Source: an uncultured SAR86 cluster bacterium (GTDB taxonomy: Bacteria; Pseudomonadota; Gammaproteobacteria; Magnimaribacterales; D2472). From it: a stretch of 64,000 bases of DNA. Positions within the stretch are counted from its first letter, which is position 1, and each line of letters starts with the position of its first letter. Below are positions 3,178 to 33,592 of this stretch, in pieces. The notes under the pieces are model-generated. The model saw nothing but the letters and a program-made list of their open reading frames with translations, was not told the origin of the DNA and made no database searches. Position numbers and translations under genes: made by a program. Location of the stretch: NCBI GenBank assembly GCA_902558395.1, contig CACEDS010000001.1:389152-453151 (forward strand), read 5' to 3'.

Positions 3178-3233
3178 AGATTTAAAGTAAAATTTATTTT
3201 AATATACGATAAAGCATATTTATAAGGAGAGTC

Positions 3234-3854: not shown

Positions 3855-3874
3855 ATTTATAGTTACTTATACTT

Positions 3875-3906
3875 AAAGGGGAGCTTAAGCTCCCCTTTAT
3901 TTTTAA
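3875..3906 (+). terminator. Rho-independent terminator
   Basis: Perfect 10-bp stem AAAGGGGAGC (3875-3884) / GCTCCCCTTT (3889-3898), TTAA loop, then a T-rich tail. Confidence 0.8.
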
Positions 3907-3964
3907 ATACTTTCTAAAATAACAAAAAATCATATAGAATGACCTCAAAAATATAGGAAATTAC

Positions 3965-7170: not shown

Positions 7171-7206
7171 TACAAACTAAAAATTTTTACCTATATAATA
7201 CCTTCT

Positions 7207-9138: not shown

Positions 9139-9141
9139 CTA

Positions 9142-9330
9142 ATGATAGCCAGAATTTTTATTCTTCCAATAAAGTTTTATCGGTATTTTATTTCTCCCAT
9201 GTTCCCACCAAGCTGTAGATTTACCCCAACATGCTCAGAGTACGCTATAGATGTAATACAGCGTTTTGGTGTGCTAAAAGGAACATATCTTGCAATTATC
9301 AGGCTTAGCAAATGCCACCCTTGGCATTAA
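9142..9330 (+). CDS. yidD: Membrane protein insertion efficiency factor YidD
   Basis: 62 aa with YRYFISP..PPSCRFTPTCSEYA...KCHPWH, the YidD signature. It ends right after CHPWH, slightly shorter than usual. Confidence 0.85.
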   Translation: MIARIFILPIKFYRYFISPMFPPSCRFTPTCSEYAIDVIQRFGVLKGTYLAIIRLSKCHPWH

Positions 9331-9358
9331 CTAATTATAAATAAAAGTGATTTATTAA

Positions 9359-9397
9359 TATAATTAAAATATATAATAAATATATATTTTAATTATA
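9359..9397. repeat. Perfect 17-bp inverted repeat (AT-only) with 5-nt spacer
   Basis: TATAATTAAAATATATA (9359-9375), ATAAA, TATATATTTTAATTATA (9381-9397). It lies between the yidD stop and the receptor gene start. Confidence 0.9.
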
Positions 9398-9458
9398 ATT
9401 TTATTAATGATATAGTAAATTTAGATACAAACTTAAAATCATTTTAGGGGGGACTAAT

Positions 9459-12179: not shown

Positions 12180-12192
12180 AAACATATTAAAT

Positions 12193-12222
12193 AAAGGTCC
12201 TTTCTGAGGGCCTTTATTTTTA
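12193..12222 (+). terminator. Rho-independent terminator after receptor 1
   Basis: Stem AAAGGTCC (12193-12200) / GGGCCTTT (12208-12215) with one G-U pair, followed by ATTTTTAT. Confidence 0.7.
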
Positions 12223-12321
12223 TACATTAAAATATATATAAAATCTATATGCAATTTACTACCAATCTTGTTATCATATAGCCTAATCTAACAATATTAA
12301 TCGTTTATATAGGGGACTTTA

Positions 12322-15090: not shown

Positions 15091-15110
15091 GAGTTTGGAT
15101 TAAATTTTAA

Positions 15111-15137
15111 AAAGCCCAGTTTACTGGGCTTTTTTTA
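15111..15137 (+). terminator. Rho-independent terminator after receptor 2
   Basis: AAAGCCCAGT (15111-15120) / ACTGGGCTTT (15123-15132) followed by a T-run. Confidence 0.8.
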
Positions 15138-15157
15138 TACTTCATACATATAAAATT

Positions 15158-15631
15158 ATGCTACCTCTACCATATATATCTGAAACAAAAATTGTTACAC
15201 AAGACATGTGTGATCATAATGGTCACATGAATGTTAACTATTACTATCAGCTCTTCGATAGTGTTTATACTGCAATGTATTACAAAGATTTAGGTTTTGA
15301 TGATGATTATCTTGCAAGTGGGTTTTCAACATTTACCCTTGAAGATAACATTAGATATTTAAAAGAATTTAAATTAGACGATAGGGTATACCCATCATTC
15401 CATCTTACAAATGTTAATAAAAAGCTACTTCATTTTGTAGGTATTCTTCAAAATGATGCTGGAGAATTATCAGCAATATTTGAAACAGTTTTAGCTCACA
15501 TGGACCTAAATGCTAGAAAGGTTACTGAATTTAGTGAAAAAAAGTTAAATAAATTGATTGCATATAGGTCTTCAAATAAATTAACAGAATCTCTTCCTTT
15601 TGAATTGAAACTTAAAATTAGAGACCTTTAA
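15158..15631 (+). CDS. Hotdog-fold acyl-CoA thioesterase family protein (4HBT/YbgC-like)
   Basis: 157 aa. The N-terminal MCDHNGHMNVNYYYQLFD matches the 4HBT catalytic region pattern (D..GH.nn..Y). Confidence 0.55.
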   Translation: MLPLPYISETKIVTQDMCDHNGHMNVNYYYQLFDSVYTAMYYKDLGFDDDYLASGFSTFTLEDNIRYLKEFKLDDRVYPSFHLTNVNKKLLHFVGILQNDAGELSAIFETVLAHMDLNARKVTEFSEKKLNKLIAYRSSNKLTESLPFELKLKIRDL

Positions 15632-21203: not shown

Positions 21204-21604
21204 AACCAGTTCGAAAAAAAAGACTACAAACAGTTTTATTAATTCTAGCTACATCTGCGCTTGGATCTTTTTTTATTATTCGAGCCTTGGATTCAAAATT
21301 AGATTTTTTCTATACACCCTCAGAAATCTTTTTAGAGGAAATTCCAGAAAATAAAAGAATAAAAATTGGAGGCATGGTTTTAGAAAACTCAGTAATAAGA
21401 GAGAAAACTAAAATATCTTTTATTGTTTCAGACTATCAAGGTTCAATTAATGTTGAATTTGATGGAATAGTGCCAGATTTGTTTAAAGAAGGCAGTGGTG
21501 TAGTTGTGTTGGGTTATTTAAAAGATAAAACCATAATTGCTGAGGAAGTTTTAGCAAAGCATGATGAAAACTATATGCCGCCAAGCATAGACATAGAGAA
21601 ATAA
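21200..21604 (+). CDS. ccmE: Cytochrome c-type biogenesis heme chaperone CcmE
   Basis: 134 aa with an N-terminal TM anchor. The C-terminal LAKHDENYMPP contains the heme-binding His motif. Confidence 0.9.
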   Translation: MKPVRKKRLQTVLLILATSALGSFFIIRALDSKLDFFYTPSEIFLEEIPENKRIKIGGMVLENSVIREKTKISFIVSDYQGSINVEFDGIVPDLFKEGSGVVVLGYLKDKTIIAEEVLAKHDENYMPPSIDIEK

Positions 21605-23499
21605 TGATCATAGAGGCAGCCCAATTTTTAACTATTCTTGCTACAGGATTATTTTTTTTATGTTTTGTATTTTCTATTTTTTTTAATGTTAATGATGTAA
21701 ATATTATTAAACTTATATCTAGAATATATTCTCATAGTTTTTTTCTATTTTTGTCCTCTTTTTTAATATATGTCTGGCTGGCAATAAATGACAATTTTAG
21801 TGTTCTATACATAGCTCAACACTCAAATACGAATCTGCCAGTTTTTTACAAAATATCTTCGATATGGAGTGCACATGAAGGGTCGATGTTTCTCTGGATT
21901 ATATTTCTTAGTTTGTGGGGAGCAATTTATAATTTTTCAGTTCATAACAACGAACCACTTAAAGCAAGAACCATTGGAGTAATATCCATAACGACTGTTG
22001 GTTTTTTATTATTTTTATTACTAACGTCGAATCCATTTGAAACAATGCTTCCTCTGCCTCCAGAGAATGGAGCTGATATTAATCCTGTACTTCAAGATCC
22101 TTTGTTAGCAATTCATCCACCAACACTTTATCTTGGTTATGTTGGTTTTGTAATCGCATTTGGACAAGCAATAGCTTTTTTGATTGAAGGCAATTCTAGT
22201 ATTAATTGGGAAAAACAGGTTAGATTTTGGTCAATAATTGCTTGGTCATTTTTAACTTTAGGGATTACTTTAGGTAGTTGGTGGGCATATTATGAATTAG
22301 GATGGGGAGGGTATTGGTTTTGGGACCCGGTTGAAAACGTTGCCCTAATGCCTTGGTTAGCAGCAACAGCTTTTATTCATTCGCTAAGCGCATCATCAAA
22401 GTCATCAATCTTAAGAATTTGGACTATTTTATTGTCCATTTTAGTTTTTTCATTAAGTCTATTTGGAGCATTTATTGTAAGGTCAGGAATCATAGATAGC
22501 GTTCATTCTTTTGCAAACGATCCGGAGAGGGGCCTTTATTTGCTGGCTTTTATCGGGATATTAGTAATGACGTCTCTTATTTTATTTTCTTATAGATTTT
22601 CAATATTGATTTCAAATAAAAGAATAGTTTCTTTATCAAAAGAATCTTTTATATCAATTAATAATATTTTTTTTGGGACTTTAATTTTTTCAACAATGCT
22701 TGGTGTAATGTATCCATTAATATATGAGTTTGTTAATGATCAAAAAATAAGTGTAGGCGCACCATTTTACAATGCCATATTTGTTCCAATTACGCTTTTA
22801 GCATGCCTGTTTCTTATTTTTTCTATTGAGTCTAAATGGCAAAGCAAACTTAAATTTGCTTTTTTGAATAACCCTCTAATAATTAGCTTTGTATTTTCTT
22901 TGTTTATAACTTTTCTATCATTTAAATTTTATTCTGTATCCAGAGCCTGGACGCTAGCTTCATTATTCATTGGCTCACTAATAATTAGTAGATATATCTT
23001 GGTAATTTATGCTTATATTTTTCATAGAAAATTTGTAAATATATATAGTGTTTTAGCCCATTTAGGACTTGGATTATTAATAATATCTATAGCCCTTAAT
23101 AATGATTTTAGTTCAGAAAGAGCATTGAATATTAAAATAAATGAAACAGAAACTTATAAAAATCATGAGATTACATTTAACAATTTACAACTTACAGAAG
23201 GTCCAAACTATGAATCTGTAAAAGCAGATTTCATAATAGAAAATAAAAACGGAAATAAATTTTCTTTAAATCCTGAAAAAAGAAAATACTTTGTTAGAGG
23301 TCAAATCACAACTGAAACAGCAATACATGCCTCCTTATTAAAAGATATATATTTAACAATTGGCGATCAACTAGATGATGGAAGTTGGATTGTAAATGTT
23401 CAGTTTAATTATTTTATAAGATGGATATGGTTTTCAGCCACATTAATGATTATTTCAGGTTTATTTTTAGCTAGGTCATTAAATAGAGTGCACTCATGA
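21604..23499 (+). CDS. ccmF: Cytochrome c heme lyase subunit CcmF
   Basis: 631 aa polytopic protein with the WWD-type motif WGGYWFWDPVEN. It is in the ccm cluster. Confidence 0.93.
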   Translation: MIIEAAQFLTILATGLFFLCFVFSIFFNVNDVNIIKLISRIYSHSFFLFLSSFLIYVWLAINDNFSVLYIAQHSNTNLPVFYKISSIWSAHEGSMFLWIIFLSLWGAIYNFSVHNNEPLKARTIGVISITTVGFLLFLLLTSNPFETMLPLPPENGADINPVLQDPLLAIHPPTLYLGYVGFVIAFGQAIAFLIEGNSSINWEKQVRFWSIIAWSFLTLGITLGSWWAYYELGWGGYWFWDPVENVALMPWLAATAFIHSLSASSKSSILRIWTILLSILVFSLSLFGAFIVRSGIIDSVHSFANDPERGLYLLAFIGILVMTSLILFSYRFSILISNKRIVSLSKESFISINNIFFGTLIFSTMLGVMYPLIYEFVNDQKISVGAPFYNAIFVPITLLACLFLIFSIESKWQSKLKFAFLNNPLIISFVFSLFITFLSFKFYSVSRAWTLASLFIGSLIISRYILVIYAYIFHRKFVNIYSVLAHLGLGLLIISIALNNDFSSERALNIKINETETYKNHEITFNNLQLTEGPNYESVKADFIIENKNGNKFSLNPEKRKYFVRGQITTETAIHASLLKDIYLTIGDQLDDGSWIVNVQFNYFIRWIWFSATLMIISGLFLARSLNRVHS

Positions 23500-24026
23500 C
23501 AGTTTTTTTAAGAGTATTTATATTATGCGTATCTCTAATGTTTTTTTACTTTTTTTATTTATATATTGAAGAGGATAAATACTATCCAGGAGCAAGTTTT
23601 CAAACTTCAAATATGCCATTGTTTGAACTTGAAGATTTATATTCGGATGATGTTATAACAAATTCAGATATAGAAGGCGCACACTTAATTAACGTCTGGG
23701 CAAGCTGGTGTATTACTTGCCGAATTGAGCATGGTTTTTTAGTAAAACTAAGCTCACAAGGTATTCCTATAATGGGGCTAAATTATAAAGACGCAAGAAT
23801 TGATGCAATAAATTGGATTACAAAGTTTGGTGACCCTTATGAATTTATTATCCATGATCTAAAAGGTGAATTAGCCTTAGATATGGGTGTCACTGGCGCA
23901 CCTGAAACTTTTTTAATAAATAATGGAAAAATTATTGCTCATTACAGGGGTGAGGTAAATGAAATGATTTGGAGTGATGTTTTTTCTCCAATTATAAAAA
24001 AGGAGAACCTTTTTAATGATAATTAA
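23496..24026 (+). CDS. ccmG: Thiol:disulfide interchange protein DsbE/CcmG
   Basis: 176 aa with a TM anchor, the thioredoxin-like WASWCITC active site and GVTGAPETFLI. Confidence 0.85.
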   Translation: MTVFLRVFILCVSLMFFYFFYLYIEEDKYYPGASFQTSNMPLFELEDLYSDDVITNSDIEGAHLINVWASWCITCRIEHGFLVKLSSQGIPIMGLNYKDARIDAINWITKFGDPYEFIIHDLKGELALDMGVTGAPETFLINNGKIIAHYRGEVNEMIWSDVFSPIIKKENLFNDN

Positions 24027-24393
24027 ATCGTTGTTATTTATATTTTTTATATCCTCAACAAATGTTTTGGGTGATTCTTTATATAATTTTGAAAATATAA
24101 AAGATGAAGAAAGGTTTTATAGTTTAATAAAAGAAATTAGATGTCCAAAATGTACTAGTGGATCACTTGCAAGCTCTAATGCTCCGGTATCTGAGGATAT
24201 CAAAGAGAAAATTATAGAATTAATTAAAGAAGGCAAAACTGATGATGAGATTAAGACTTTTCTGTCTGATAGGTTTGGAAATGAAGTCTTATACAATCCA
24301 GGATTGAATAGCAATACGTATATTCTTTGGATTGCACCAGTATTATTTTTATTTATTGCTTTGTTAATATTCTTTTTTAGAAGAAAGACATAA
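24016..24393 (+). CDS. ccmH: Cytochrome c-type biogenesis protein CcmH
   Basis: 125 aa with a signal peptide, IRCPKCTSGSLASSNAP (CxxC redox motif) and a C-terminal TM segment. Confidence 0.8.
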   Translation: MIIKSLLFIFFISSTNVLGDSLYNFENIKDEERFYSLIKEIRCPKCTSGSLASSNAPVSEDIKEKIIELIKEGKTDDEIKTFLSDRFGNEVLYNPGLNSNTYILWIAPVLFLFIALLIFFFRRKT

Positions 24394-25172
24394 TGTTTTT
24401 TATATACTTCTTAGCTTTCTTTGCATTCATTCCAATCTTGGCATATCTGTTATCGCAAAATACAAACAATAAAGGATATATTTTTGGAATCTCTTTTTTA
24501 GTTGTTCTTGTTTGTTTATTTACTGTTGTTGGAAAATACTCATTCTTAGGCTCAATTAAAAATCAAAAGATCAATTCAGAAATTCTTATGAATATTAACG
24601 TTAATAGTAAAATTTCTGAAAACATTACAAGAGAATTTAATAACAATATTAGCAATGAAGATAAAGTGTATTGGCTGCAAAGTTATATTAATAAAGCCAT
24701 TGAAGACAGTAAATTTATTGCTGCTGAAAGCTTAATTTCTATCTCAGAGCAATACTTTCAAACCACAGATGAAAAATTTATTTTTTATACCTTATACACA
24801 AAACTTAGAGACGCAAAATTCCCTGATTTTGCAAAGTCTAAATTAATTATAAATCTTAACTCTCCTCCAGAGTGCTCTAATTTTTTTGGTACAGCAGAAG
24901 TATTTATAATGAATGGTCCAAAAATACCCATAGCCTTAAAAAAATTCACGAATTCTTCTGAATTTGAATTAGAAAATGTTCATTCCTCCATTCCTGGTTT
25001 TGATTTGGCTTCTGCCTATCTAAATCAAGAAACTCTTGATTTAAAAGTATCATTAAACTGCCCTGAAACAGCCTCTATTTTTTATTCTGAAAACGCTTTG
25101 TTAATTGATAACAATCAGCCTGTAAATTCCTATAATATTAAGGCAAATGAATGGTTTAAAAGGGAACAATAG
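24393..25172 (+). CDS. Putative CcmI-like cytochrome c biogenesis accessory protein
   Basis: 259 aa with two N-terminal TM helices, ATGA-coupled to ccmH, in the position of ccmI. The call rests on position only, since sequence similarity is not evident by eye. Confidence 0.4.
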   Translation: MFFIYFLAFFAFIPILAYLLSQNTNNKGYIFGISFLVVLVCLFTVVGKYSFLGSIKNQKINSEILMNINVNSKISENITREFNNNISNEDKVYWLQSYINKAIEDSKFIAAESLISISEQYFQTTDEKFIFYTLYTKLRDAKFPDFAKSKLIINLNSPPECSNFFGTAEVFIMNGPKIPIALKKFTNSSEFELENVHSSIPGFDLASAYLNQETLDLKVSLNCPETASIFYSENALLIDNNQPVNSYNIKANEWFKREQ

Positions 25173-25205: not shown

Positions 25206-28193
25206 ATGCAGCTTAAACATATAAAACTCGCAGGTTTTAAAAGTTTCGTAGATCCAACGAAGATATCTTTTCCTTCAAATTTAGTAGGCGTAGTTGGCCC
25301 TAATGGCTGTGGTAAATCAAACGTAATTGATGCCGTAAGATGGGTTTTAGGAGAGCTCTCTGCTAAAAATCTTCGTGGGGAGTCTATGGTAGACGTCATC
25401 TTCAATGGGTCAGAAAATAGAAAACCATCAGGACAATGCAGTATTGAATTACTTTTTGATAATTCTAGTGGAAAGATTGGTGGTGAATATGCTTCCTATA
25501 ATGAAATTTCCATCAAAAGAGTAATGACAAGAGATGCACAGTCAACTTATTTTATAAATAGTACAAAGTGTAGAAGAAAAGATGTTCAAGATATATTTCT
25601 AGGAACAGGTTTAGGACCAAGTTCTTATGCAATTATTGAACAAGGAATGGTCAGTAGGCTTGTAAGTGCAAAGCCAGAGGAGCTTAGGACTCATATTGAA
25701 GAGGCTGCAGGCGTCTCTAAATATAGGGAAAGAAGAAGAGAAACCGAGAGTCGAATCAAGAAGACAAAAGAGAACCTATCAAGAGTTAAAGATATAAAGG
25801 ATGAAATAGAAAGGCTTATTAGAAGGCTTGAAAATCAAGCTAATGCTGCAGAGAAATATAACAAGTTAAAAGAAGAGGAGAATCAGAAACAAACTGATAT
25901 AGCTATTCTTTATTCACTTGAAGCTAAAAACAATAAAGACAAACTCCAAAAGAACTTAGAAGGCTTAAATAGAGATCTCAAAATAAAACAGGCTGAATCA
26001 GATTCAAAACAAGCACAAATCGATGATTATAGAACCCAGAATGAGTCTGTAATTAATGCTTATGAGGATGCTCAGAAAAATTTTTATACAATAGGTGCTG
26101 AAATAGCCAAGCATGAATCAGATCTTCATAATATCAACAAATCTGAAGCTACTAATTTAGAAGCCCTTGAGAGAGCTCAAAAAAGTTACAAAGATGCTCT
26201 TCAAAAAGAGTCTGCATTTAAGGACTTAAGTCCAAAAGAAAAAGAATTAAAGCTAAATATTGCTATTGTTAAAGCTTTTGATGCTCTTGAGAAAAAAAAT
26301 ACTATCGGTGTGTCAATTAAACCGCTCGAAGACCAAATAAACATCAAACAAAATGAATTAGATTCGAAGCAGGATATTTTTGATGGTATTAAAGCTAATA
26401 AAGACAAAATCGTAAGTGAGATAAAAGACATTCAGAAAAATCAATTTTCTATTGATGCTGAGATTGCACGAATCGAAGGCTCAATAAAAAATCTTAATAA
26501 TTTAGCAGAAAATGCAAAATCAGATTTTGAAGATGCTTCACGTAATTATGCAAACGCTGTTGACAAAGAGTCAAATAATGAACATCTAAGCCCTAAAGAA
26601 AAAGCAATACACTTACTAGATTCAATCACAGACTTACTTAAATCATTTGGATCAAGTGCAGATAAAGTGAACTCAAAATTATCTGAGCTTAAAGAACTCC
26701 TAATGAGCATATTAAAAATTGCTTCTGATCAATCAAAAAGTTTTACTGCAGAATATTTAAATCAAAAAAATAGAGCAGAAGAGGCTATTAACAAAGCCAA
26801 GGAAGATAAAAAAATTGCTGAAACTAAGCTCGAAGACCTTAACAGTCAAAGAATCTCAATTGGCAATCAACTGGAATCACACATTAGTATTCAGACTAAT
26901 ATAGATAACCAATTGCAAGAAATGGATAGCAATAAATCTGTTGTATCAAATGAACTTAGGAACCTTGAGAAAGAAATTAATGATTTAAGGCTTGAGCTAA
27001 GAACTCACGAAATTAATTTAGAAAATGCTTCAATGGTTTTAGAGAAAGCAGAGGTAAGTATTTCAGACCTTGATTCAGCACAATACAAGGGAATGGATTT
27101 AAAAGGGCTTGAGGTCTCTTTAGATGAAATACAAAAAAATATTGCTCAATTAGGTTCAGTCAATTTAGCTGCTCCCGAAGAGTACTTAAGCAGAGAAAAC
27201 GAATTAAAAAAATTAATTGAAGAAGCTGAAATAAGAAAGTCTGAAATTCAAGTAATTATGGATGGCTTGGTAGAAAAGAGCTCTAAAGCAGAATCTGAAT
27301 TAACAGCCATAAGGCAAAAACAATCTCAGTTTAATGAAAGCTTAAGAGACCTTGAAAATCAAAAAAATGTAGCTGAACTAGATCTTAAATCAATTACAGA
27401 GAAAGTTACTAATCTGAGGTTGGATTTAAAAACCCATGAAATTAATCTAGATAACGCAAACACTAAAATTAAAGAGGCTGGTTTAAATATTGAAAATATA
27501 GATTATTCAAAATATGAAGATATGGAGCTCAATGTCCTCCAAGATTCACTTGCAGACATTCAGGCAAAAATCATACGTCTAGGAGCTATCAACCTGGCAG
27601 CTCCAGAAGAAATAGCTGCAGAATCAAAAAGAAAAGAAGAGCTTGATGTTCAATACAACGATCTTACTGAAGCTCTTGAAAAACTTACAGGCGCCATAAA
27701 AACAATTGATCTTGAAACTAAAACAAGATTTCAAGATAGCTTTGATTCAATAAACAAAAGAATGAAAGAGGTATTTTCAAAGTTATTTGGTGGTGGTTTT
27801 GCTGAACTCGCTCTTACCGAAAATGATGCTTTAAATGCGGGTGTAGTAATAATGGCTAGACCTCCTGGCAAGAAAAATTCATCAATTTCTCAACTGTCAG
27901 GAGGTGAAAAAGCTTTAACTGCTTTAGCTCTTGTTTTTGCAATTTTTGAGCTCAATCCTGCTCCGTTTTGTATTTTAGATGAAGTAGATGCTCCACTAGA
28001 TGATTTAAATACTATGCGTTTTATAAATATGGTTGAGGAGATGTCAAAGACAGTTCAATTCATATTTATAACTCATAATAAAGTTTCTATGGAAAAAAGT
28101 GATCATTTAATGGGAGTAACAATGCAAGAAGCTGGTGTTTCTAGAATGGTCTCTGTTGATGTTAACCAAGCTCTAGAATTTGCTGAAGTATGA
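25206..28193 (+). CDS. smc: SMC-family chromosome partition ATPase, atypical (no recognisable hinge)
   Basis: 995 aa. N-head FKSF...GPNGCGKSNVIDAVRWVLGE and EQG; C-head LSGGEKALTALALVFA and FCILDEVDAPLDD. About 680 aa of coiled coil lie between the heads. Confidence 0.85.
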   Translation: MQLKHIKLAGFKSFVDPTKISFPSNLVGVVGPNGCGKSNVIDAVRWVLGELSAKNLRGESMVDVIFNGSENRKPSGQCSIELLFDNSSGKIGGEYASYNEISIKRVMTRDAQSTYFINSTKCRRKDVQDIFLGTGLGPSSYAIIEQGMVSRLVSAKPEELRTHIEEAAGVSKYRERRRETESRIKKTKENLSRVKDIKDEIERLIRRLENQANAAEKYNKLKEEENQKQTDIAILYSLEAKNNKDKLQKNLEGLNRDLKIKQAESDSKQAQIDDYRTQNESVINAYEDAQKNFYTIGAEIAKHESDLHNINKSEATNLEALERAQKSYKDALQKESAFKDLSPKEKELKLNIAIVKAFDALEKKNTIGVSIKPLEDQINIKQNELDSKQDIFDGIKANKDKIVSEIKDIQKNQFSIDAEIARIEGSIKNLNNLAENAKSDFEDASRNYANAVDKESNNEHLSPKEKAIHLLDSITDLLKSFGSSADKVNSKLSELKELLMSILKIASDQSKSFTAEYLNQKNRAEEAINKAKEDKKIAETKLEDLNSQRISIGNQLESHISIQTNIDNQLQEMDSNKSVVSNELRNLEKEINDLRLELRTHEINLENASMVLEKAEVSISDLDSAQYKGMDLKGLEVSLDEIQKNIAQLGSVNLAAPEEYLSRENELKKLIEEAEIRKSEIQVIMDGLVEKSSKAESELTAIRQKQSQFNESLRDLENQKNVAELDLKSITEKVTNLRLDLKTHEINLDNANTKIKEAGLNIENIDYSKYEDMELNVLQDSLADIQAKIIRLGAINLAAPEEIAAESKRKEELDVQYNDLTEALEKLTGAIKTIDLETKTRFQDSFDSINKRMKEVFSKLFGGGFAELALTENDALNAGVVIMARPPGKKNSSISQLSGGEKALTALALVFAIFELNPAPFCILDEVDAPLDDLNTMRFINMVEEMSKTVQFIFITHNKVSMEKSDHLMGVTMQEAGVSRMVSVDVNQALEFAEV
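26067..26645 (+). repeat. Diverged tandem duplication inside the smc N-proximal coiled coil (aa 288-365 vs 408-480)
   Basis: QKNFYTIGAEIAKHESDLHNINK...ALQKESAFKDLSPKEK aligns with QKNQFSIDAEIARIEGSIKNLNN...AVDKESNNEHLSPKEK, offset 120 aa. Confidence 0.7.
26952..27611 (+). repeat. Diverged tandem duplication inside the smc C-proximal coiled coil (aa 583-660 vs 725-802)
   Basis: NDLRLELRTHEINLENA...IAQLGSVNLAAPEEY aligns with TNLRLDLKTHEINLDNA...IIRLGAINLAAPEE, offset 142 aa. The duplication is also visible at DNA level, at roughly 60 percent identity by eye. Confidence 0.8.
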
Positions 28194-28831
28194 TGGACTC
28201 CAATATAGATATATATTTAATTGGCATTTCTGTTTTAGTATTCCTAATAATTACATTTCTTTTCATTAGAAAAATTTCTAATAGAGGAGAGCTCAAAGTA
28301 AAAATTGAGCCTGTTACAGACACTTTTGAAATAAAAGAGTTTGATGAAATTGATATAAAGTCTCAAAAAGCTTTTGATTTTGAAGATAAAGATCACATTG
28401 ATTATCAAGAACAAAAACTTGTTGTCTTAAACTTAATATCCATTGATAAGTCCATGTTCGAAATTGATCAAGTATATGGGTTTATGAATAATCTCGGAGC
28501 AACCCTATCTCATGGATTTTTTGTTATAAAAGATAGTGACTATAAAGAGTCTTTTAGAATAGCCAATGCTTTAAACCCTGGAACATTTGAAGCAGATACT
28601 AGCACTTTCGCAATTCTTGTAGCCGCTGATCTTAATAACGTCTTGGACCCGATTAAAACAGTAAAAGATATGGTAAATTTTGCTTATGAATTTACTGAAA
28701 AGTTTTATGCCAATATTTGTGACCAAGAGAGAATGCCAATAACAAAACAAATGATTTCTCATATTGAGTCTCAAGCTCAAGAGATTGCAAGGCTGAAACA
28801 ACTGGCAGTTGCTGAAAAATCTGATAAATGA
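28190..28831 (+). CDS. zipA: Cell division protein ZipA-like
   Basis: 213 aa with an N-terminal TM anchor (IYLIGISVLVFLIITFLFI). The C-terminal domain pattern (VVLNLIS...FMNNLG...FRIANALNPGTF...ILVAADL...MVNFAYEF...DQERMPITKQ) is like the ZipA FtsZ-binding domain. ATGA-coupled to smc. Confidence 0.65.
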   Translation: MMDSNIDIYLIGISVLVFLIITFLFIRKISNRGELKVKIEPVTDTFEIKEFDEIDIKSQKAFDFEDKDHIDYQEQKLVVLNLISIDKSMFEIDQVYGFMNNLGATLSHGFFVIKDSDYKESFRIANALNPGTFEADTSTFAILVAADLNNVLDPIKTVKDMVNFAYEFTEKFYANICDQERMPITKQMISHIESQAQEIARLKQLAVAEKSDK

Positions 28832-30111
28832 AGCCCTGGAAAATAATTCAAAAACTTGAAAGTAATAACAGTAGATTATTCAAAGAAAGCGTTATTGAAG
28901 AAAATATTAATGACCTAGAATTTCAAGAAGGTCTATCAATGTGCTTAGATGCATTAGTAACATTTGGTGTTAAACAAGTTCCTAAATCTGATAAAAATGG
29001 AAATGGATTAGATTGGAGCACTTTTAAGAACTCAGCTTTACTTCTGATTGAAAGAGAGAAAACTGGTCATGCTGCTAGGGATGAAATTTTGGAGCTAATG
29101 GATAAAGCCACTTCGGAAGAGTGGAATGATTGGTATAGAAGAATCTTAATAAAGGATTTGAGGTGCGGCGTAAGTGAGAAGACGGTGAACAATGTCGCAA
29201 AAAAAATAGATATTCAATTTAGAGTGCCTGTTTTTGCATGCATGCTATCTCATGACGGAATGAAACATCCAAAAAAGATTAAAGGTAACTGTTTAATTGA
29301 ATATAAATATGATGGAGTGAGAGTAATAGCAATAACTAAGAAAAATAATACAACCCTCTACAGTAGAAATGGAAAAATATTTAGCAATTTTCCTCATATT
29401 GAAGAAGCATTAAGCAAACCTGAATTTAATGATATGGTTTTTGATGGCGAAGTGATGAGTGATGATTTTCAATCATTAATGAAACAGGTTCATAGGAAAA
29501 CCAATGCAAAAACAGAAGATGCATATTTAGCTTTGTTTGATATCTTACCTCTTAAAGAATTTAACGATGGAAAAAGCAAGCTCACAACCCTTGAAAGAAA
29601 ACATCATTTAGAGAAATTTGCTAAAAAATTTCCTTCATGTATTAAGATTGTTGATTATACGGTTGTAGATTTTGATAAAGAGCAGGGTGAAGAAATTTAT
29701 ACTCAAATGAACAAAGAGGCTTTAGAGCGAGGCTATGAAGGGTTGATGATTAAACCTGAAAATGATTTATATGAGTGCAAAAGAAGTCATGCTTGGCTAA
29801 AAATGAAACCTTTTATTGAAGTTACATTAAAAGTAACCGAGGTTCACGAGGGCACTGGAAGGCATGCTGGTAAACTGGGAGCATTTTCAGTTGAGGGCAA
29901 TGACGATGGCAAATTTTTCTCATTAAATGTGGGCAGTGGCTTGACTGATGAAAATAGAGAAAAATTCTGGCAATATAAAGATTCATTGATAGGACAATTA
30001 ATAGAAATTCGAGCAGATGCAGTAACTCAGAGTATGGAAGGTGAAAATTACAGTTTGAGATTTCCACGTTTTAAAACATTCAGAGGTTTTGAGCCAGGGG
30101 AAAAAATCTGA
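28828..30111 (+). CDS. ATP-dependent DNA ligase
   Basis: 427 aa nucleotidyltransferase. Motif I is EYKYDGVR (Lys160, nt 29305-29307), motif III FDGEVM, motif IV EGLMIKP, motif V WLKMKP. There is an OB-fold-like C-terminus and an N-terminal extension of about 150 aa. ATGA-coupled to zipA. Confidence 0.9.
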   Translation: MKPWKIIQKLESNNSRLFKESVIEENINDLEFQEGLSMCLDALVTFGVKQVPKSDKNGNGLDWSTFKNSALLLIEREKTGHAARDEILELMDKATSEEWNDWYRRILIKDLRCGVSEKTVNNVAKKIDIQFRVPVFACMLSHDGMKHPKKIKGNCLIEYKYDGVRVIAITKKNNTTLYSRNGKIFSNFPHIEEALSKPEFNDMVFDGEVMSDDFQSLMKQVHRKTNAKTEDAYLALFDILPLKEFNDGKSKLTTLERKHHLEKFAKKFPSCIKIVDYTVVDFDKEQGEEIYTQMNKEALERGYEGLMIKPENDLYECKRSHAWLKMKPFIEVTLKVTEVHEGTGRHAGKLGAFSVEGNDDGKFFSLNVGSGLTDENREKFWQYKDSLIGQLIEIRADAVTQSMEGENYSLRFPRFKTFRGFEPGEKI

Positions 30112-30722
30112 TGAATATTAGATTTTTAAAAACTTCGTTTTTTATAATTTTGATATTCTCTCTTCAGTCATGCATGACAACGCCGCCTCAAAATCCAGAT
30201 AACATATGTTTAATATTTGAAGAAAAGAAAAGTTGGTACAAGGCTGCAATAAAATCAGAAAAGAGGTGGAAAATTCCTCCTTATGTTCTTATGTCATTTG
30301 TTTATCAAGAATCTAGTTTTAAAGCAGATGCAAAACCAGAAAGAACGAAGTTATTATGGGTAATACCGTGGAAGAGAAAATCTTCAGCTGTAGGTTATTC
30401 TCAGGCACTCAACATGACTTGGGAGGACTACAAAGATGAGACTGGAAATTCTGGAGCAAGTAGAAAGAATTTTAAGGATTCAGCAGATTTTATAGGATGG
30501 TATGCATCTAAAGGTTATTATCAAGGATTTGATAGGTTAGATGCTAGATCGTTGTATCTTGCATATCATGAAGGGTATGGAGGCTTTAAGAAAAAAACTT
30601 ACAGAAAAAAACCGTGGCTAATAAAAGTAGCAGATAGAGTTCAAACAAGATCAACTAAATATCAACAGCAATACTGGGGATGCGCTAAAGAATTAAAGAA
30701 AAAAAGATTTTTCTTTTTTTAA
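30111..30722 (+). CDS. Putative lipoprotein with lytic transglycosylase (SLT)-like domain
   Basis: 203 aa with signal peptide plus LQSC. VYQESSF (catalytic Glu-Ser), GYSQAL and AYHEGYGG are consistent with SLT family goose-type lysozyme folds. The start overlaps the ligase stop. Confidence 0.55.
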   Translation: MNIRFLKTSFFIILIFSLQSCMTTPPQNPDNICLIFEEKKSWYKAAIKSEKRWKIPPYVLMSFVYQESSFKADAKPERTKLLWVIPWKRKSSAVGYSQALNMTWEDYKDETGNSGASRKNFKDSADFIGWYASKGYYQGFDRLDARSLYLAYHEGYGGFKKKTYRKKPWLIKVADRVQTRSTKYQQQYWGCAKELKKKRFFFF

Positions 30723-30724
30723 AT

Positions 30725-33592
30725 TTATATATTTTTAATTTCAAACCCTAAATCTTTTAGCTCTGTTTCATAATTTTGACCAGCTATAGCAGAGCGCTTT
30801 GATTCATTGAATAAATATTTTTCTGATACCATAACGAGGTTAGCTAAGCTACATTCTTTAACTTTTGATCTAAAGCTTAAGCGCTCATCTTGAGTTTTTT
30901 GATCTAATGAACTCATAAAATCGCTCATAGCTTCACCAAATGGAGATAATGGTTTATCTATACTTGATATAACACCCAAAATTCCTTCTTCTAATTGTTC
31001 TTCTGTAATACTCTTAACTGACCATTCTCTGGATTTTTTAAATTCGTTAAATGTATCTGTACATTTTGGGTCTCTGTAGGAAAAGAATTTAAAAACTTTG
31101 TTATTTGAGTCTTGAGTGGCTCCGGCGCCATATGCACCGCCTTTTTCTCTAATAGCAGAATGAAGATATCCATTTCTTAAAACTGTTCCGAGTACTGTTA
31201 GAGCAGGGGCATCTTCGTGCAAAAAATCAACTGTTGGGAACGCTTCAGCACAAAAACATACTTGTGAGCCAGTGATCCAACCAATTGGAGTAGATTGAAG
31301 CGCAATAAGATTTTGATTTTTATAAAGATTAGTATTTTCTTTGATTGTGAAATTTAAGTTTAAATTTGCTTTATCTAATGCTGATGCTGTGAATAAATGA
31401 CTTGGTGTATTAGAAATTTTAGAATTTATAGACCTAAGCAATTCTATATACTTTGCAAGCTCATTTTGTTCATTAACTAATTTTGAAAGATGATTGGTGT
31501 TATGAACAAACCTAAGTCCTGATGTGAGATCATTGGTCGATGCAATATCACTTATTTGTGAAGCAGCATTGCTCATAGACAGAATATGACCATTTTGAAT
31601 AACTGATTTTTCATTATCAGATGAGATAAATTCTAAAAGCTCTTGAATTCTATTAGTTTCATCAAAGATTGATTCTTTAACAGTTCTTAATATTAAATCC
31701 TGCATAAAAGACTCGTTGCCTTCTAAGCTCTTTGAGCTAACTTTTAGTGCCAATTTAAAAGTATCATCTTTTTTATCAGGTAAAGTGATAAATGAAGCTG
31801 AAATTCCTCCAGTGATAGATGATTGATATTTTTGAATATCTTCGTACCCATCTCTACCTAAACCAATATCTGTGAGTGTATTAGAAAGTAAGCTGGCAAC
31901 TTTTAATTCATTTTCATCAAGAGCCTCACAAGGAAAAATCATTGAATGATAAACAATCCCATTAGTACCAGTTTTATAGAAGTAATTGGTAGATTCATTT
32001 TTTGTAAAAGTTAATGGAGATGCATAGTTTCTTGTTTTGGGAATATCTTCCTTTGTAACCTTTGGCAAGACCTCTGGATCATCAATAGAATTTTGTCTTT
32101 TTTCTAAATCATTAGCTAACTTTATGAGCTTTTCTTTATCATCAGAAGAAAAGTTTTTTGTGATTTCAAAAACTTTATTTTGGATTTTTTCTTCATTTTT
32201 TTTATTCAACTCAGTATCGGGAATCAGAGAATATGTTAACCTGTGATTGTTTTTAATTAGATTTTTATCAATAAGATTTTCGATATAATTATCTGATTTG
32301 AGGTTATTTTTTATAGTATTAAAAGCACTATCTAAATCTAATACATTTAAAGGATTGTCGTTATGAATACATGCGGGCAAGCAAGTTAACATAATTTGTA
32401 AACCAAATGGCATACCAGAACCAGTAATTTCTCTTTGTCTAATTTCTAGCTGATGAAGAGAGGAATCTATTAGATCTTTGGGTACTCCATCTTCTACTAG
32501 CTTTTTGAGACAATCCATTATGAGTATCTCAACTTCTTTGGATTTATTGGAATCAATACCCTCTAACCCAGCAGCAAATACAAGCTCCTTTTGATCAGCT
32601 TCAAGACCTGTTAAAGGCGAAGGGGATTTACCCAATTTTGTATTTTCTAAAACCTTTCTAAGAGGAGAGGCAGAGTTATCTAAAAGAATGTTAGACATTA
32701 AATATGTTTCAAGTAACTGAACTGGGTTATGACTTTCATTTAAAAGCCAACTTAAAACAATATGATGATTATTTTCATCTCCTGGTTGAGGATTATAAAA
32801 ATCAGAAACAACTTTTGGTGAATCTAATCTGTCTTCATTTTTAACAGCTACAACTTCATCTGATGGCGAAAAATTATCTAAAACATTTTCTTTAATGAAC
32901 GACTGTATTTCTAGAGGATCTACATTGCCAAATGTAAAGAAGGTAGCATTTGATGGGTGATAATGTTTTTGATGAAAATTCACCAAATCCTCATGCGAGA
33001 GATCTATTATGTTCTCTGGATCACCGCCACTATTATGCTTATAAGTCGAAGAAGAGTATAAGTGTTTCGACATTCCATGCCATAACTGACTTGTAATTGA
33101 GCTCATGGCTCCTTTCATTTCATTATAAACAACACCTTTAATTTCAATCTCACTTTCTGGATTATTTTTTTCCTGAAACTCCAACCTATGACCTTCTTGA
33201 GCAAAATCAAGATTATCTAAATTTGGAAAAAACGCTGAGTCAAGATATACACCTAAAAGATTGTTAAAATCCTTTTTATTCAGTGTTGCAAATGGGTAAG
33301 CAGTCCAATCGCTTGAGGTGAAAGCATTCATGAATGTGTTAAGAGACCTTCTAATCATCATAAAGAATGGATCTCTTACTGGGTATTTTTTTGAACCACA
33401 TAAGGCTGTATGTTCTAAAATGTGGGCTACACCAGTAGAATCTTCAGGAATAGTTCTAAAAGCAACCATGAATACTTTTTCATTGCTATCGCTCTCTAGG
33501 TGTATGTGCTTGCAATTAAATTCTGATTCGTTATATATTTGAGCATTGACATCTAGCAAAGGAATATTTTTTTGTTCTTGAAGGTTAAACAT
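30725..33592 (-). CDS. Peptidase M16C (PreP/insulinase-like) metalloprotease
   Basis: 955 aa with the inverted zinc motif HILEHTALCGS (HxxEH) near the N-terminus. Size and architecture match PreP-type pitrilysins. Confidence 0.9.
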   Translation of the reverse strand: MFNLQEQKNIPLLDVNAQIYNESEFNCKHIHLESDSNEKVFMVAFRTIPEDSTGVAHILEHTALCGSKKYPVRDPFFMMIRRSLNTFMNAFTSSDWTAYPFATLNKKDFNNLLGVYLDSAFFPNLDNLDFAQEGHRLEFQEKNNPESEIEIKGVVYNEMKGAMSSITSQLWHGMSKHLYSSSTYKHNSGGDPENIIDLSHEDLVNFHQKHYHPSNATFFTFGNVDPLEIQSFIKENVLDNFSPSDEVVAVKNEDRLDSPKVVSDFYNPQPGDENNHHIVLSWLLNESHNPVQLLETYLMSNILLDNSASPLRKVLENTKLGKSPSPLTGLEADQKELVFAAGLEGIDSNKSKEVEILIMDCLKKLVEDGVPKDLIDSSLHQLEIRQREITGSGMPFGLQIMLTCLPACIHNDNPLNVLDLDSAFNTIKNNLKSDNYIENLIDKNLIKNNHRLTYSLIPDTELNKKNEEKIQNKVFEITKNFSSDDKEKLIKLANDLEKRQNSIDDPEVLPKVTKEDIPKTRNYASPLTFTKNESTNYFYKTGTNGIVYHSMIFPCEALDENELKVASLLSNTLTDIGLGRDGYEDIQKYQSSITGGISASFITLPDKKDDTFKLALKVSSKSLEGNESFMQDLILRTVKESIFDETNRIQELLEFISSDNEKSVIQNGHILSMSNAASQISDIASTNDLTSGLRFVHNTNHLSKLVNEQNELAKYIELLRSINSKISNTPSHLFTASALDKANLNLNFTIKENTNLYKNQNLIALQSTPIGWITGSQVCFCAEAFPTVDFLHEDAPALTVLGTVLRNGYLHSAIREKGGAYGAGATQDSNNKVFKFFSYRDPKCTDTFNEFKKSREWSVKSITEEQLEEGILGVISSIDKPLSPFGEAMSDFMSSLDQKTQDERLSFRSKVKECSLANLVMVSEKYLFNESKRSAIAGQNYETELKDLGFEIKNI

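What the first reader, a model, noticed from the sequence alone, without database searches (positions are those of the whole stretch)
28190..30722. ATP-dependent DNA ligase occupies the ligA slot of the conserved smc-zipA-ligA operon
In Pseudomonas (PA1527-1529) and many other gammaproteobacteria the order is smc-zipA-ligA, where ligA is the essential NAD-dependent replicative ligase. E. coli also keeps zipA next to ligA. Here smc and zipA are followed, with ATGA translational coupling (28828-28831), by a 427-aa ATP-dependent ligase with motifs KYDGVR, FDGEV, EGLMIK and WLKMKP. It has no NAD-ligase features: no KxDG within an Ia/adenylation LigA context, no Zn finger, no HhH, no BRCT. It also has no signal peptide, so it is not a periplasmic Lig E type, and it carries a ~150-aa N-terminal extension. 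The position suggests in-situ non-orthologous displacement, or at least co-option into the replication/division operon. That is notable because NAD-dependent LigA is regarded as near-universal in bacteria. An SLT-like lipoprotein gene is coupled downstream in turn (TGATG at 30109-30113).
Basis: partly seen in the sequence, partly recalled or inferred. Interest (0 to 1): 0.7.

Follow-up and report, generated by a model that had tools for sequence, protein, structure and literature searches.

The report
ATP ligase replaces LigA in SAR86
In this abundant marine bacterium (SAR86), the NAD-dependent DNA ligase that bacteria normally need for replication has been replaced, at exactly the same place in the chromosome, by a phage-type ATP-dependent ligase. 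The same replacement was known before only from high-light Prochlorococcus.

Summary
The window comes from a SAR86 gammaproteobacterium (GTDB family D2472). Its genes run smc, zipA, a 427-aa ATP-dependent ligase, then slt, with overlapping stop and start codons.

The ligase is a full-length homologue (52% identity) of Pmar-Lig, also called 'AD-Lig P'. That enzyme is the structurally and biochemically characterised ATP ligase reported to have replaced LigA in high-light Prochlorococcus.

Across 74 informative SAR86 species loci, the conserved slot ccmFGHI-smc-zipA-[X]-slt|PreP holds the ATP ligase in 46 and a full-length NAD-LigA in 28. It never holds both.

Phylogenies of the flanking genes and of the ligases require at least four swaps. 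One is a clear lateral transfer of the ATP-ligase gene into an otherwise LigA-type lineage.

Two independent lines indicate that ATP-type genomes have no LigA anywhere. A published marker table gives TIGR00575 = 0 in three 93-99% complete genomes. And a 5.8-billion-protein database contains no LigA at the identity expected for these lineages.

The SAR86 ligases form one clade nested among ligases from uncultivated marine phage contigs. They are under strong purifying selection (dN/dS about 0.05).

Verdict: a genuine in-situ non-orthologous displacement. It is a new member of a known kind, and I found no report of it for SAR86.

The parts
21604..25172 (+). Upstream context: cytochrome c maturation genes ccmF, dsbE/ccmG, ccmH and ccmI. 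They lie on the same strand as smc and directly precede it.
   Evidence: ORFs. Pfam labels on the equivalent genes of L330/L331. This block is collinear in all SAR86 loci.
25206..28193 (+). smc (995 aa), the first gene of the smc-zipA-ligase-slt run.
   Evidence: SMC_N 1e-55. TIGR02168 scores 861 bits against a cut-off of 567.
28190..28831 (+). zipA (213 aa, a short form). It overlaps smc by 4 nt and the ligase gene by 4 nt (ATGA).
   Evidence: ZipA_C 6.4e-12. Junction sequence read.
28828..30111 (+). ATP-dependent DNA ligase of the Pmar-Lig/'AD-Lig P' type (427 aa plus stop). It occupies the ligA slot.
   Evidence: PDB 6RAU/6RAS/6RAR E = 1e-134, covering residues 5-427. 52% identity to Pmar-Lig. 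PF01068 + PF14743. dN/dS 0.04-0.06.
28828..29271 (+). N-terminal alpha-helical DNA-binding domain (aa 1-148).
   Evidence: Aligns to Pmar-Lig residues 10 to about 155, with many invariant columns. The domain is described for Pmar-Lig in PMC6698739 and PMC7470946.
29272..29808 (+). Nucleotidyltransferase (adenylation) domain, aa 149-327. It carries motif I with K160 (codon 29305-29307) and D162, motif III FDGEV, motif IV EGLMIK and motif V WLKMKP.
   Evidence: PF01068 covers residues 149-327. These columns are invariant against Pmar-Lig.
29848..30108 (+). OB-fold domain (aa 341-427) with motif VI LRFPRFK.
   Evidence: PF14743 covers residues 341-419. Columns invariant.
30111..30722 (+). SLT_4 family lytic transglycosylase, a putative lipoprotein (signal sequence ending LQSC). 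Its start overlaps the ligase stop (TGATG). It marks the downstream edge of the slot in both ATP-type and NAD-type SAR86.
   Evidence: PF19489 8.8e-73. The gene follows LigA in NAD-type loci as well.
30725..33592 (-). Convergent PreP/M16C peptidase. It marks the end of the co-directional gene run.
   Evidence: M16C_assoc, Peptidase_M16_C and PreP_C. Conserved in all loci.

Best explanation
**What it is.** The gene at 28828-30111 encodes the ATP-dependent DNA ligase that this SAR86 lineage uses in place of NAD-dependent LigA. That role includes sealing Okazaki fragments during replication.

**How the enzyme works (inferred from Pmar-Lig).** It is a three-domain enzyme: a helical DNA-binding domain, a nucleotidyltransferase domain and an OB fold. 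These clamp around nicked duplex DNA. Lys160 of motif I is adenylated by ATP. The AMP is then passed to the 5' phosphate of the nick. The 3' OH attacks with the help of a metal ion held by Asp162 and residues of motifs III and IV.

**Expression (inferred).** The gene is translated from the same co-directional, stop/start-overlapping run as smc, zipA and slt. It therefore inherits the expression context of the ligA it displaced.

**Evolution (partly shown, partly inferred).**
- A ligase of a family common on uncultivated marine phage contigs was captured once by a SAR86 ancestor within family D2472, and replaced ligA.
- The cassette then spread between SAR86 lineages into the same slot, most simply by recombination using the conserved neighbouring genes.
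- A single recombination event both delivers the new ligase and removes the old one, so no ligase-less intermediate is needed.

**Shown here:** homology, domain and motif integrity, the in-slot alternation with LigA, at least four swaps, absence of LigA signals, and purifying selection.

**Inferred, not shown:** ATP use, the replicative role, co-transcription, the recombination mechanism, and the phage-to-cell direction of transfer.
For: **Enzyme identity.**
- Full-length match to the solved Pmar-Lig structures, E = 1e-134; 52% identity.
- All catalytic motifs are invariant.
- Pmar-Lig is an ATP- and Mg-dependent nick-sealing ligase, reported to have more than 10-fold the specific activity of a Prochlorococcus LigA (bioRxiv 10.1101/2020.05.11.089284; PMC6698739).

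**Slot alternation.** Of 77 SAR86 loci counting the window, 46 carry the ATP ligase, 28 carry a full-length LigA and 3 are truncated contigs. None carries both, and all share the same neighbours. The LigAs of NAD-type loci carry Ia, adenylation, OB, HhH and BRCT domains.

**Absence of LigA elsewhere.**
- Ramfelt et al. 2024, Suppl. Table 1, gives TIGR00575 = 0 for SAR86A (97.3% complete) and for two SCGC-AAA076-P13-genus genomes (92.9% and 98.65%).
- The same table gives 1 for SAR86B, SAR86E and most other genomes.
- I matched these three genomes by name, not by accession, to my ATP-type loci L234, L186 and L182.
- Gap tests: LigAs related to L221 are one cluster at 100% and about 34 at 82-83% identity. 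Three sampled members of the 82-83% group lie in the slot. The next hits drop to 68%.
- LigAs related to L192 are found at 86-87% and then at 68% or less. Nothing falls in the 70-85% range expected for the window's clade.
- ATP-ligase clusters of these clades are very numerous.

**Repeated swaps.**
- A bootstrapped tree of five flanking proteins places L247 (ATP-type) inside a NAD-type clade with 100% support.
- It places L221 (NAD-type) inside an ATP-type clade with 100% support.
- It places L192/L205 (NAD-type) as sister to the window's ATP-type clade with 100% support.
- Genes on both sides of the slot agree individually.
- The L247 ligase is 85-88% identical to window-clade ligases, while its flanks match the NAD-type clade.
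- The LigA tree is congruent with the flank tree.

**Selection and composition.** dN/dS is 0.04-0.06, the same as for smc and slt. The gene's G+C is 0.335 against 0.328 for the window.

**Origin.** The SAR86 ligases are monophyletic and nested among IMG/VR viral-contig ligases of 54-68% identity. The neighbours on those contigs match phage-only families or nothing at all.
Against: - No whole genome could be searched directly. Absence of LigA therefore rests on a published marker table and on database gap tests.
- A truncated LigA fragment (Ia plus adenylation domain only), as found in high-light Prochlorococcus, might escape both tests.
- A second ATP ligase elsewhere in the genome (Prochlorococcus has 'AD-Lig B') was not looked for. 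If present, it could share or take the replicative role.
- There is no biochemical or expression data for the SAR86 enzyme.
- No beta-clamp-binding motif was identified.
- The trees are neighbour-joining trees, and flanking genes can themselves recombine.
- The viral status of the IMG/VR contigs was checked only over 6-kb flanks.
Confidence: 0.8

Rival explanations
1. The ATP ligase is an accessory repair enzyme that merely landed next to zipA. A normal NAD-LigA, relocated elsewhere in the genome, still carries out replication.
For: Accessory ATP ligases are common in bacteria (reviewed in PMC7470946). I could not scan a complete ATP-type genome myself, because the LigA scan failed.
Against: - TIGR00575 = 0 in three ATP-type genomes of 93-99% completeness, but 1 in NAD-type SAR86.
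- No LigA of the expected similarity exists in a 5.8-billion-protein collection, although these clades are abundant there.
- In 74 loci the slot holds one ligase or the other, never both.
- No ligA remnant remains; the gaps between genes are 40 bp or less.
Confidence: 0.06
2. LigA is indeed lost, but another ATP-dependent ligase elsewhere in the genome (LigB-like, as 'AD-Lig B' in Prochlorococcus) is the replicative enzyme. The in-slot ligase serves repair or recombination only.
For: High-light Prochlorococcus carries at least two ATP ligases, and its replicative one has not been proven genetically. I made no genome-wide search for other ATP ligases in SAR86.
Against: - The position is exactly that of ligA, in a translationally coupled run with smc and zipA.
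- The gene is retained in all 46 ATP-type loci under strong purifying selection.
- SAR86 genomes are small, about 1.2-1.3 Mb, which leaves little room for redundancy.
- Apart from one 2.5-kb mis-binned contig (L011), the SAR86 loci found by ligase similarity and compared with the window's genes were all at this locus; I did not run the same comparison on the further SAR86 loci from the broader scan.
Confidence: 0.1
3. The gene is a recent phage or prophage insertion, or an assembly or binning chimera, with no lasting role in the host.
For: The closest non-SAR86 relatives are on viral contigs. Some MAG hits are clearly mis-binned or phage-derived: L011 'Aliarcobacter', and L034, which equals IMG/VR contig L166.
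Against: - The same arrangement occurs in 46 species-level genomes, including single-cell genomes and megabase contigs.
- The ligase diverges along with its hosts, down to 69% identity within SAR86.
- Its G+C matches the host.
- dN/dS is about 0.05.
- There are no phage genes nearby; the neighbours are ccm, smc, zipA, slt and PreP.
Confidence: 0.02

Closest known systems
Pmar-Lig / 'AD-Lig P' of high-light Prochlorococcus marinus (PDB 6RAR, 6RAS, 6RAU, 6RCE; Williamson & Leiros 2019, PMC6698739; Hjerde et al. 2020 preprint, 10.1101/2020.05.11.089284)
   Same: - Same three-domain architecture: compact helical DNA-binding domain, PF01068 and PF14743.
- 52% identity over the full length, with all catalytic motifs conserved.
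- Same evolutionary event: the gene sits exactly where the NAD-LigA of related lineages sits, and those genomes lack an intact LigA.
- Both hosts are streamlined, AT-rich bacteria of the surface ocean.
   Different: - Different phylum and a different slot: downstream of recA in Prochlorococcus, smc-zipA-[X]-slt here.
- The two host groups fall in different parts of the ligase tree, each next to different viral-contig ligases, which suggests separate captures.
- In SAR86 the ATP and NAD states alternate among close relatives, with at least four swaps and a demonstrable lateral transfer.
- The truncated LigA fragments reported in Prochlorococcus were not looked for here.
- The SAR86 enzyme has not been studied biochemically.
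Phage ATP-dependent DNA ligases with a helical DNA-binding domain (T4 gp30, PDB 6DT1; SPO1-like Bacillus phage ligases; PHROG phrog_114)
   Same: Same domain order and motifs. The viral-contig homologue L094 matches phrog_114 at 1e-100. The window's ligase has full-length homologues in 241 deposited phage genomes. The DNA-binding domain of Pmar-Lig superimposes on that of T4 ligase (PMC6698739).
   Different: Only 29-37% identity to ligases of isolated phages. T4 ligase matches only partially, at E = 1e-10. According to PMC6698739, Pmar-Lig lacks the clamp-binding loop of T4 ligase and cannot join blunt ends. The SAR86 gene is a stable chromosomal gene in a host operon.
Bacterial NAD-dependent LigA (E. 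coli b2411; TIGR00575)
   Same: Presumed same cellular job, nick sealing in replication and repair. Same genomic position after zipA. It shares the nucleotidyltransferase-superfamily KxDG chemistry.
   Different: Different cofactor (ATP rather than NAD+). It has no Ia domain, Zn finger, HhH or BRCT domains. It is 427 aa rather than about 717 aa, which saves about 870 bp and removes a zinc site.
Lig E (periplasmic minimal ATP ligases, e.g. Alteromonas mediterranea, PDB 6GDR)
   Same: Shares the PF01068 + PF14743 (OB_2) catalytic core.
   Different: Lig E has a signal peptide and no DNA-binding domain. The SAR86 protein has a 148-aa DNA-binding domain and a hydrophilic N-terminus.

Membership tests
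Pmar-Lig / AD-Lig P type ATP-dependent DNA ligase | Nucleotidyltransferase domain PF01068 with motifs I, III, IV and V, including the catalytic Lys | tested here: met
   PF01068 6.4e-24, residues 149-327. K160, D162, FDGEV, EGLMIK and WLKMKP are invariant against Pmar-Lig.
Pmar-Lig / AD-Lig P type ATP-dependent DNA ligase | OB_2-type OB domain (PF14743) with motif VI, rather than PF04679 | tested here: met
   PF14743 2.3e-11. PF04679 reaches only E = 0.008, below its cut-off. LRFPRFK is conserved.
Pmar-Lig / AD-Lig P type ATP-dependent DNA ligase | Compact N-terminal helical DNA-binding domain without a Pfam model, homologous to that of Pmar-Lig and T4 ligase | tested here: met
   phmmer alignment to 6RAU spans query residues 5-427 and chain residues 10-442, E = 1e-134. 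Many columns in residues 6-148 are invariant. The fold itself was not predicted separately.
Pmar-Lig / AD-Lig P type ATP-dependent DNA ligase | ATP-specific (not NAD) nick sealing | not testable with these tools
   Shown for Pmar-Lig. Inferred here from 52% identity and the conserved motifs.
Replacement of replicative NAD-LigA by an ATP ligase (as reported for high-light Prochlorococcus) | The ATP ligase sits at the position that LigA occupies in related lineages | tested here: met
   46 ATP-type and 28 NAD-type loci share the same neighbours.
Replacement of replicative NAD-LigA by an ATP ligase (as reported for high-light Prochlorococcus) | No intact NAD-LigA elsewhere in the genome | tested here: inconclusive
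   Indirect but consistent. TIGR00575 = 0 in three 93-99% complete ATP-type genomes. No LigA of the expected identity in the protein collection. None in the 64-kb window. The direct genome scan failed.
NAD-dependent DNA ligase LigA | Ia domain, PF01653 adenylation, PF03120 OB, Zn finger, HhH, BRCT | tested here: not met
   None of these domains was found in the window protein. All except the Zn-binding model were found in the SAR86 LigAs of L192 and L221.
Lig E | Minimal NT+OB enzyme with an N-terminal signal peptide and no DNA-binding domain | tested here: not met
   A 148-aa DNA-binding domain is present. The N-terminus is hydrophilic (by inspection, no predictor was run).
LigD / NHEJ ligase | Ligase fused to polymerase and/or phosphoesterase domains, with a Ku partner | tested here: not met
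   Only PF01068 and PF14743 were found. TIGR02779 scores 88.7 bits against a cut-off of 227.75, and TIGR02776 scores 77 against 373. The neighbours are smc, zipA and slt, not ku. No genome-wide search for Ku was made.
LigB / LigC type bacterial ATP ligases | PF04675 DNA-binding domain (LigB) and PF04679 OB domain | tested here: not met
   No PF04675 hit. PF04679 falls below its cut-off. The NCBIfam models for these families all score far below their cut-offs.
smc-zipA-ligA gene cluster of Gammaproteobacteria | Co-directional order smc, zipA, ligase | tested here: met
   Order and overlaps confirmed. The ancestral form with LigA is found in 28 SAR86 loci and in most of 80 proteobacterial LigA loci.

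The most novel reading that the evidence does not exclude
In SAR86 the replicative-ligase slot behaves like a polymorphic locus with two unrelated 'alleles', NAD-LigA and a phage-derived ATP ligase. These are exchanged across species boundaries by recombination in the conserved flanks. The exchange has happened at least four times, possibly in both directions. Under this reading the two states are kept in different lineages by ecological selection, for example on zinc, NAD or nitrogen economy, gene length, or enzyme speed in the surface ocean. SAR86 would then be a natural, replicated experiment on why bacteria normally use NAD ligases.
Probability: 0.4. Interest if true: 0.8.

Novelty: new member of a known kind. 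Interest (0 to 1): 0.66.

Why it matters
NAD-dependent LigA is treated as universal and essential in bacteria. It is an antibacterial target and is used as a single-copy marker for genome completeness. High-light Prochlorococcus was presented in 2020 as the first exception.

Here a second, unrelated and globally abundant lineage shows the same replacement by the same ligase family. This turns an oddity into a pattern: streamlined bacteria of the surface ocean capture a compact phage-type ATP ligase.

SAR86 adds something that Prochlorococcus does not offer. Closely related lineages with identical gene neighbourhoods carry either the NAD or the ATP enzyme, and the change has happened several times independently. 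That allows comparative and ecological tests of why bacteria prefer NAD ligases. It also gives a concrete example of an essential replication gene being swapped by recombination with no ligase-less intermediate.

On the practical side, marker sets that count TIGR00575 will slightly underestimate the completeness of ATP-type SAR86 genomes.

Tried and rejected
1. **Direct scan for ligA in SAR86 genomes.** I used an alignment of 11 SAR86 LigAs. Only non-SAR86 loci came back, not even the query's own locus. The result says nothing about absence, and it used the last genome scan. I reused those 80 loci only as a background sample of LigA neighbourhoods.
2. **Rfam scan of the window.** No RNA family was found, so there is no riboswitch or RNA element to consider.
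3. **First tree script.** It timed out and was rerun with lighter settings.
4. **Literature searches.** Searches for SAR86 with ligA, DNA ligase or ATP-dependent DNA ligase found nothing relevant. The first SAR86 isolate paper does not discuss ligases in its text.
5. **Lig E, LigD/NHEJ and LigB/C.** Considered and rejected on domain content and score cut-offs.
6. **Neomarinimicrobiota (L034) and Crocinitomicaceae (L035) hits as further cellular replacements.** Considered and rejected. Both contexts are runs of small, phage-like ORFs, and L034 is 99.97% identical to an IMG/VR viral contig.
7. **Matching LigA hits to ATP-type contigs by contig length.** Considered and judged too weak. It was replaced by the identity-gap argument.
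8. **Structure prediction.** Not run, because a 52%-identical solved structure exists.

Full report
**1.

The six-frame ORF list gives these genes:
- smc 25206-28193
- zipA 28190-28831
- a 427-aa ORF 28828-30111
- a 203-aa ORF 30111-30722
- a convergent 955-aa ORF 30725-33592(-)

The junctions read ATGA at 28828-28831 and TGATG at 30109-30113. smc and zipA also overlap by 4 nt.

Pfam assigns:
- SMC_N to the first gene
- ZipA_C (6e-12) to the second
- DNA_ligase_A_M (6e-24) plus DNA_ligase_OB_2 (2e-11) to the third
- SLT_4 (9e-73) to the fourth
- M16C/PreP to the convergent gene

NCBIfam confirms SMC, at 861 bits against a cut-off of 567. It places the ligase below the cut-off of every curated bacterial ligase family. 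No NAD-ligase domain is present in the ligase. tblastn with E. coli LigA finds nothing in the 64-kb window (best E = 4). Rfam finds no RNA family.

**2. What the ligase is**

Against the PDB, the best hits are 6RAU, 6RAS and 6RAR/6RCE, at E = 1e-134 over residues 5-427. These are the ATP-dependent ligase of Prochlorococcus marinus, Pmar-Lig. Identity is 52% over the full length.

Motifs I (K160, D162), III, IV, V and VI are invariant in an alignment of SAR86 ligases with Pmar-Lig.

Pmar-Lig is an ATP/Mg-dependent ligase that seals nicks and cohesive ends.

**3. Whose genome this is**

Pattern scans of one-genome-per-species contigs place the window in SAR86. It is 99% identical to MAG contig JAYQKD010000003.1 and 94-98% identical to several SAR86 single-cell genomes. 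The taxonomy table of Ramfelt et al. 2024 assigns related genomes to GTDB o__SAR86, f__D2472.

**4. The slot alternates between two unrelated ligases**

A scan seeded with SAR86 SMC returned 76 species-level SAR86 loci. I classified them by tblastn with the window's proteins and with E. coli LigA, which was taken.

Every locus is collinear: ccmF-dsbE-ccmH-ccmI-smc-zipA-[X]-slt, then the convergent PreP. Counting the window, that gives 77 loci:
- X is the ATP ligase (427-434 aa) in 46 loci.
- X is a full-length NAD-LigA (713-725 aa) in 28 loci.
- X cannot be read in 3 loci, because the contig ends.
- X is never both.

The LigAs carry Ia, adenylation, OB, HhH and BRCT domains. They also keep the KxDG motif and four Cys residues. 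Independent gene calls on metagenome contigs show the same two states within an even longer shared neighbourhood.

The ancestral nature of smc-zipA-ligA is supported by a background sample of 80 proteobacterial LigA loci. In that sample 50 have zipA directly upstream and 60 have smc upstream. E. coli has zipA-ligA adjacent.

**5. Is LigA really gone from the ATP-type genomes?**

Two indirect lines agree.

(a) A published marker table. Supplementary Table 1 of Ramfelt et al. 2024 (PMC11582366) counts marker genes per genome. For TIGR00575, 'DNA ligase (NAD+) LigA', it gives:

| Genome | Group | Completeness | TIGR00575 |
|---|---|---|---|
| GCA_000252525.1 | g__SAR86A | 97.3% | 0 |
| GCA_000384935.1 | g__SCGC-AAA076-P13 | 92.9% | 0 |
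| GCA_000385055.1 | g__SCGC-AAA076-P13 | 98.65% | 0 |
| SAR86B, SAR86E and most others | | | 1 |

The marker also belongs to the set derived from the closed genome of isolate HIMB1674. By name, the three zero genomes correspond to my ATP-type loci L234 (SAR86A), L186 (AAA076-P13) and L182 (AAA168-P09). If LigA were present, the chance of missing it in all three through incompleteness alone would be about 0.027 x 0.071 x 0.0135, roughly 3e-5. This is my arithmetic and assumes independence.

(b) Identity-gap tests in a 5.8-billion-protein collection.
- The LigA of L221, a NAD-type lineage nested in the SAR86A-like clade, has one cluster at 100% and about 34 at 82-83% identity. After that nothing appears until 68%.
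- Three sampled members of the 82-83% group lie in the slot. They are closest to L221.
- The LigA of L192, sister to the window's clade, has relatives at 86-87% and then at 68% or less.
- The flanking proteins of the window's clade are 65-78% identical to those of L192. LigA diverges about as fast as PreP. A vertically inherited LigA in the window's clade should therefore appear at roughly 70-80% identity. None does.
- By contrast, ATP-ligase clusters from these clades saturate the hit list, and some clusters have hundreds of members.

A short Ia+adenylation fragment, or a very divergent foreign LigA, is not formally excluded by (b). The second possibility is addressed by (a).

**6. The swap happened repeatedly**

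I built a neighbour-joining tree of five flanking proteins (ccmF, SMC, ZipA, SLT, PreP; 2,639 columns; 100 bootstraps). It shows:
- The deep lineages are all NAD-type.
- L247 (ATP-type) sits inside a NAD-type clade with L220, L194 and L196 (100% support).
- L192/L205 (NAD-type) are sister to the window's ATP-type clade (100%).
- L221 (NAD-type) sits inside the second ATP-type clade with L225 and L229 (100%).

Each flanking gene, on both sides of the slot, gives the same nearest neighbours. The LigA tree is congruent with the flank tree, with L221 grouping with L192/L193/L205. These LigAs therefore look vertically retained.

The ATP ligases of SAR86 are monophyletic, with two subclades that mirror the two host clades. 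The exception is L247. Its ligase is 85-88% identical to window-clade ligases, yet its SMC, ZipA, SLT and PreP match the NAD-type clade at 80-83%, 63-67%, 83-88% and 71-77%.

On this tree at least four changes of state are needed, whichever direction is allowed. The simplest reading has three steps:
1. One capture of the ATP ligase.
2. Lateral spread among SAR86 lineages into the same slot.
3. Recombination in or near the conserved neighbours as the mechanism, so that gain of the new ligase and loss of the old one are a single event.

Uneven synonymous divergence around the slot among very close relatives is consistent with frequent recombination here. Between the window and L177, dS is 0.17 for smc but 0.68 for the ligase.

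**7. It is a working host gene**

dN/dS for the ligase is 0.04-0.06 in seven comparisons, the same as for smc and slt. Its G+C (0.335) matches its neighbours and the window as a whole (0.328). There are no phage genes nearby. ATP-type loci are on average slightly more AT-rich than NAD-type loci (flank G+C 0.309 against 0.331), but the ranges overlap.

**8. Where it came from**

The IMG/VR scan found more than 478 relatives. The best are 61-68% identical to the window's ligase, which is closer than Prochlorococcus at 51-54%.

In the ligase tree, SAR86 is sister to one group of viral-contig ligases. Prochlorococcus groups with another. This suggests separate captures from a phage gene pool.

On the viral contigs the neighbouring genes match phage-only families (phrog_1297 ATPase, phrog_1314 HNH endonuclease) or nothing at all. 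The L094 viral-contig ligase itself matches phrog_114. Deposited genomes of isolated phages carry full-length homologues at only 29-37% identity.

The two other 'cellular' hits are phage-like regions. L034, labelled Neomarinimicrobiota, is 99.97% identical to an IMG/VR contig. L035 is labelled Crocinitomicaceae.

**9. Comparison with what is known**

The closest precedent is the 2020 preprint of Hjerde et al.. It reports that in high-light Prochlorococcus:
- 'AD-Lig P' (Pmar-Lig) occupies the position of the full-length NAD ligase of low-light strains.
- The only NAD-ligase genes left are truncated.
- The ATP enzyme is more than 10-fold as active.

The preprint calls this the first bacterium relying on an ATP ligase for replication. 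[quoted passage not shown] I found no paper in the searchable library that connects SAR86 with loss of ligA or with this ligase.

The SAR86 case is therefore a new member of a known kind, with one added feature: repeated in-slot swapping among close relatives.

**10. What remains inferred**

These points rest on homology, position and comparative patterns, not on experiments:
- ATP specificity
- the replicative role
- co-transcription with smc and zipA
- how the enzyme is recruited to Okazaki fragments (no clamp-binding motif was identified)
- the recombination mechanism
- the phage-to-host direction of transfer
- any selective advantage, such as about 870 bp saved, no zinc site, or a different cofactor

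I did not test whether a second ATP ligase exists elsewhere in these genomes.

**Verdict**

My confidence that this is the lineage's replacement for LigA is about 0.8. Interest is 0.66. The principle is already known from Prochlorococcus. A second abundant lineage, and an apparently recurrent, recombination-mediated swap of an essential replication gene, make it worth following up.

Noticed in passing
window 25206-28193 (smc); L229:7001-9196: SAR86 SMC is unusually short: 995 aa in the window's clade and only 727-734 aa in other SAR86 clades. Neither form gives a hit to the Pfam hinge domain (PF06470), even when the middle third is scanned alone. The head domains and the TIGR02168 match are intact.
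   Followed up: partly
L192:10620-12776, L221:9821-11974 and the other NAD-type SAR86 loci: SAR86 NAD-LigAs carry an insertion of roughly 45 aa between the two cysteine pairs of the zinc finger (C409/C412 ... C470/C476, against C408/C411/C426/C432 in E. coli from my own knowledge). The Pfam zinc-binding model PF03119 does not detect the region.
   Followed up: partly
L247 (= L014/L038; SAG AG-390-J15, CACEAP010000001.1) 9863-11146: A clear mosaic. The ligase is 85-88% identical to window-clade ligases. All five flanking genes are instead closest to a LigA-carrying clade. The exchanged tract seems to end within about 100 bp of the gene ends.
   Followed up: yes
L011 (JALRJW010000290.1, labelled Aliarcobacter sp. 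MAG): A 2.5-kb contig carrying a ligase 97% identical to the window's. It is almost certainly a SAR86 contig mis-binned into a Campylobacterota MAG.
   Followed up: no
L034 (PBPT01000016.1, 335-kb contig of a 'Neomarinimicrobiota' MAG) 2001-15314, compared with L166: 99.97% identical over 13.3 kb to an IMG/VR viral contig. The region consists of many small same-strand ORFs. This is either a large phage binned as a bacterium or a prophage.
   Followed up: partly
L224:9826-11102 (SAG AG-422-O05, 1.19-Mb contig); L210:10622-12154; L240: There is a single frameshift in the ATP-ligase gene of L224. The LigA of L210 is truncated at 510 aa. Several genes are broken in L240. These are probably assembly or polishing errors rather than pseudogenes.
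   Followed up: partly
window 25206-30722 compared with L177: Synonymous divergence jumps across the locus between close relatives: dS is 0.17 in smc, 0.68 in the ligase gene and near saturation in slt. This points to a recombination breakpoint near zipA.
   Followed up: partly
window 28190-28831: ZipA is only 213 aa, against 328 aa in E. coli. It keeps the N-terminal membrane anchor and the C-terminal FtsZ-binding domain, but most of the linker is missing.
   Followed up: no
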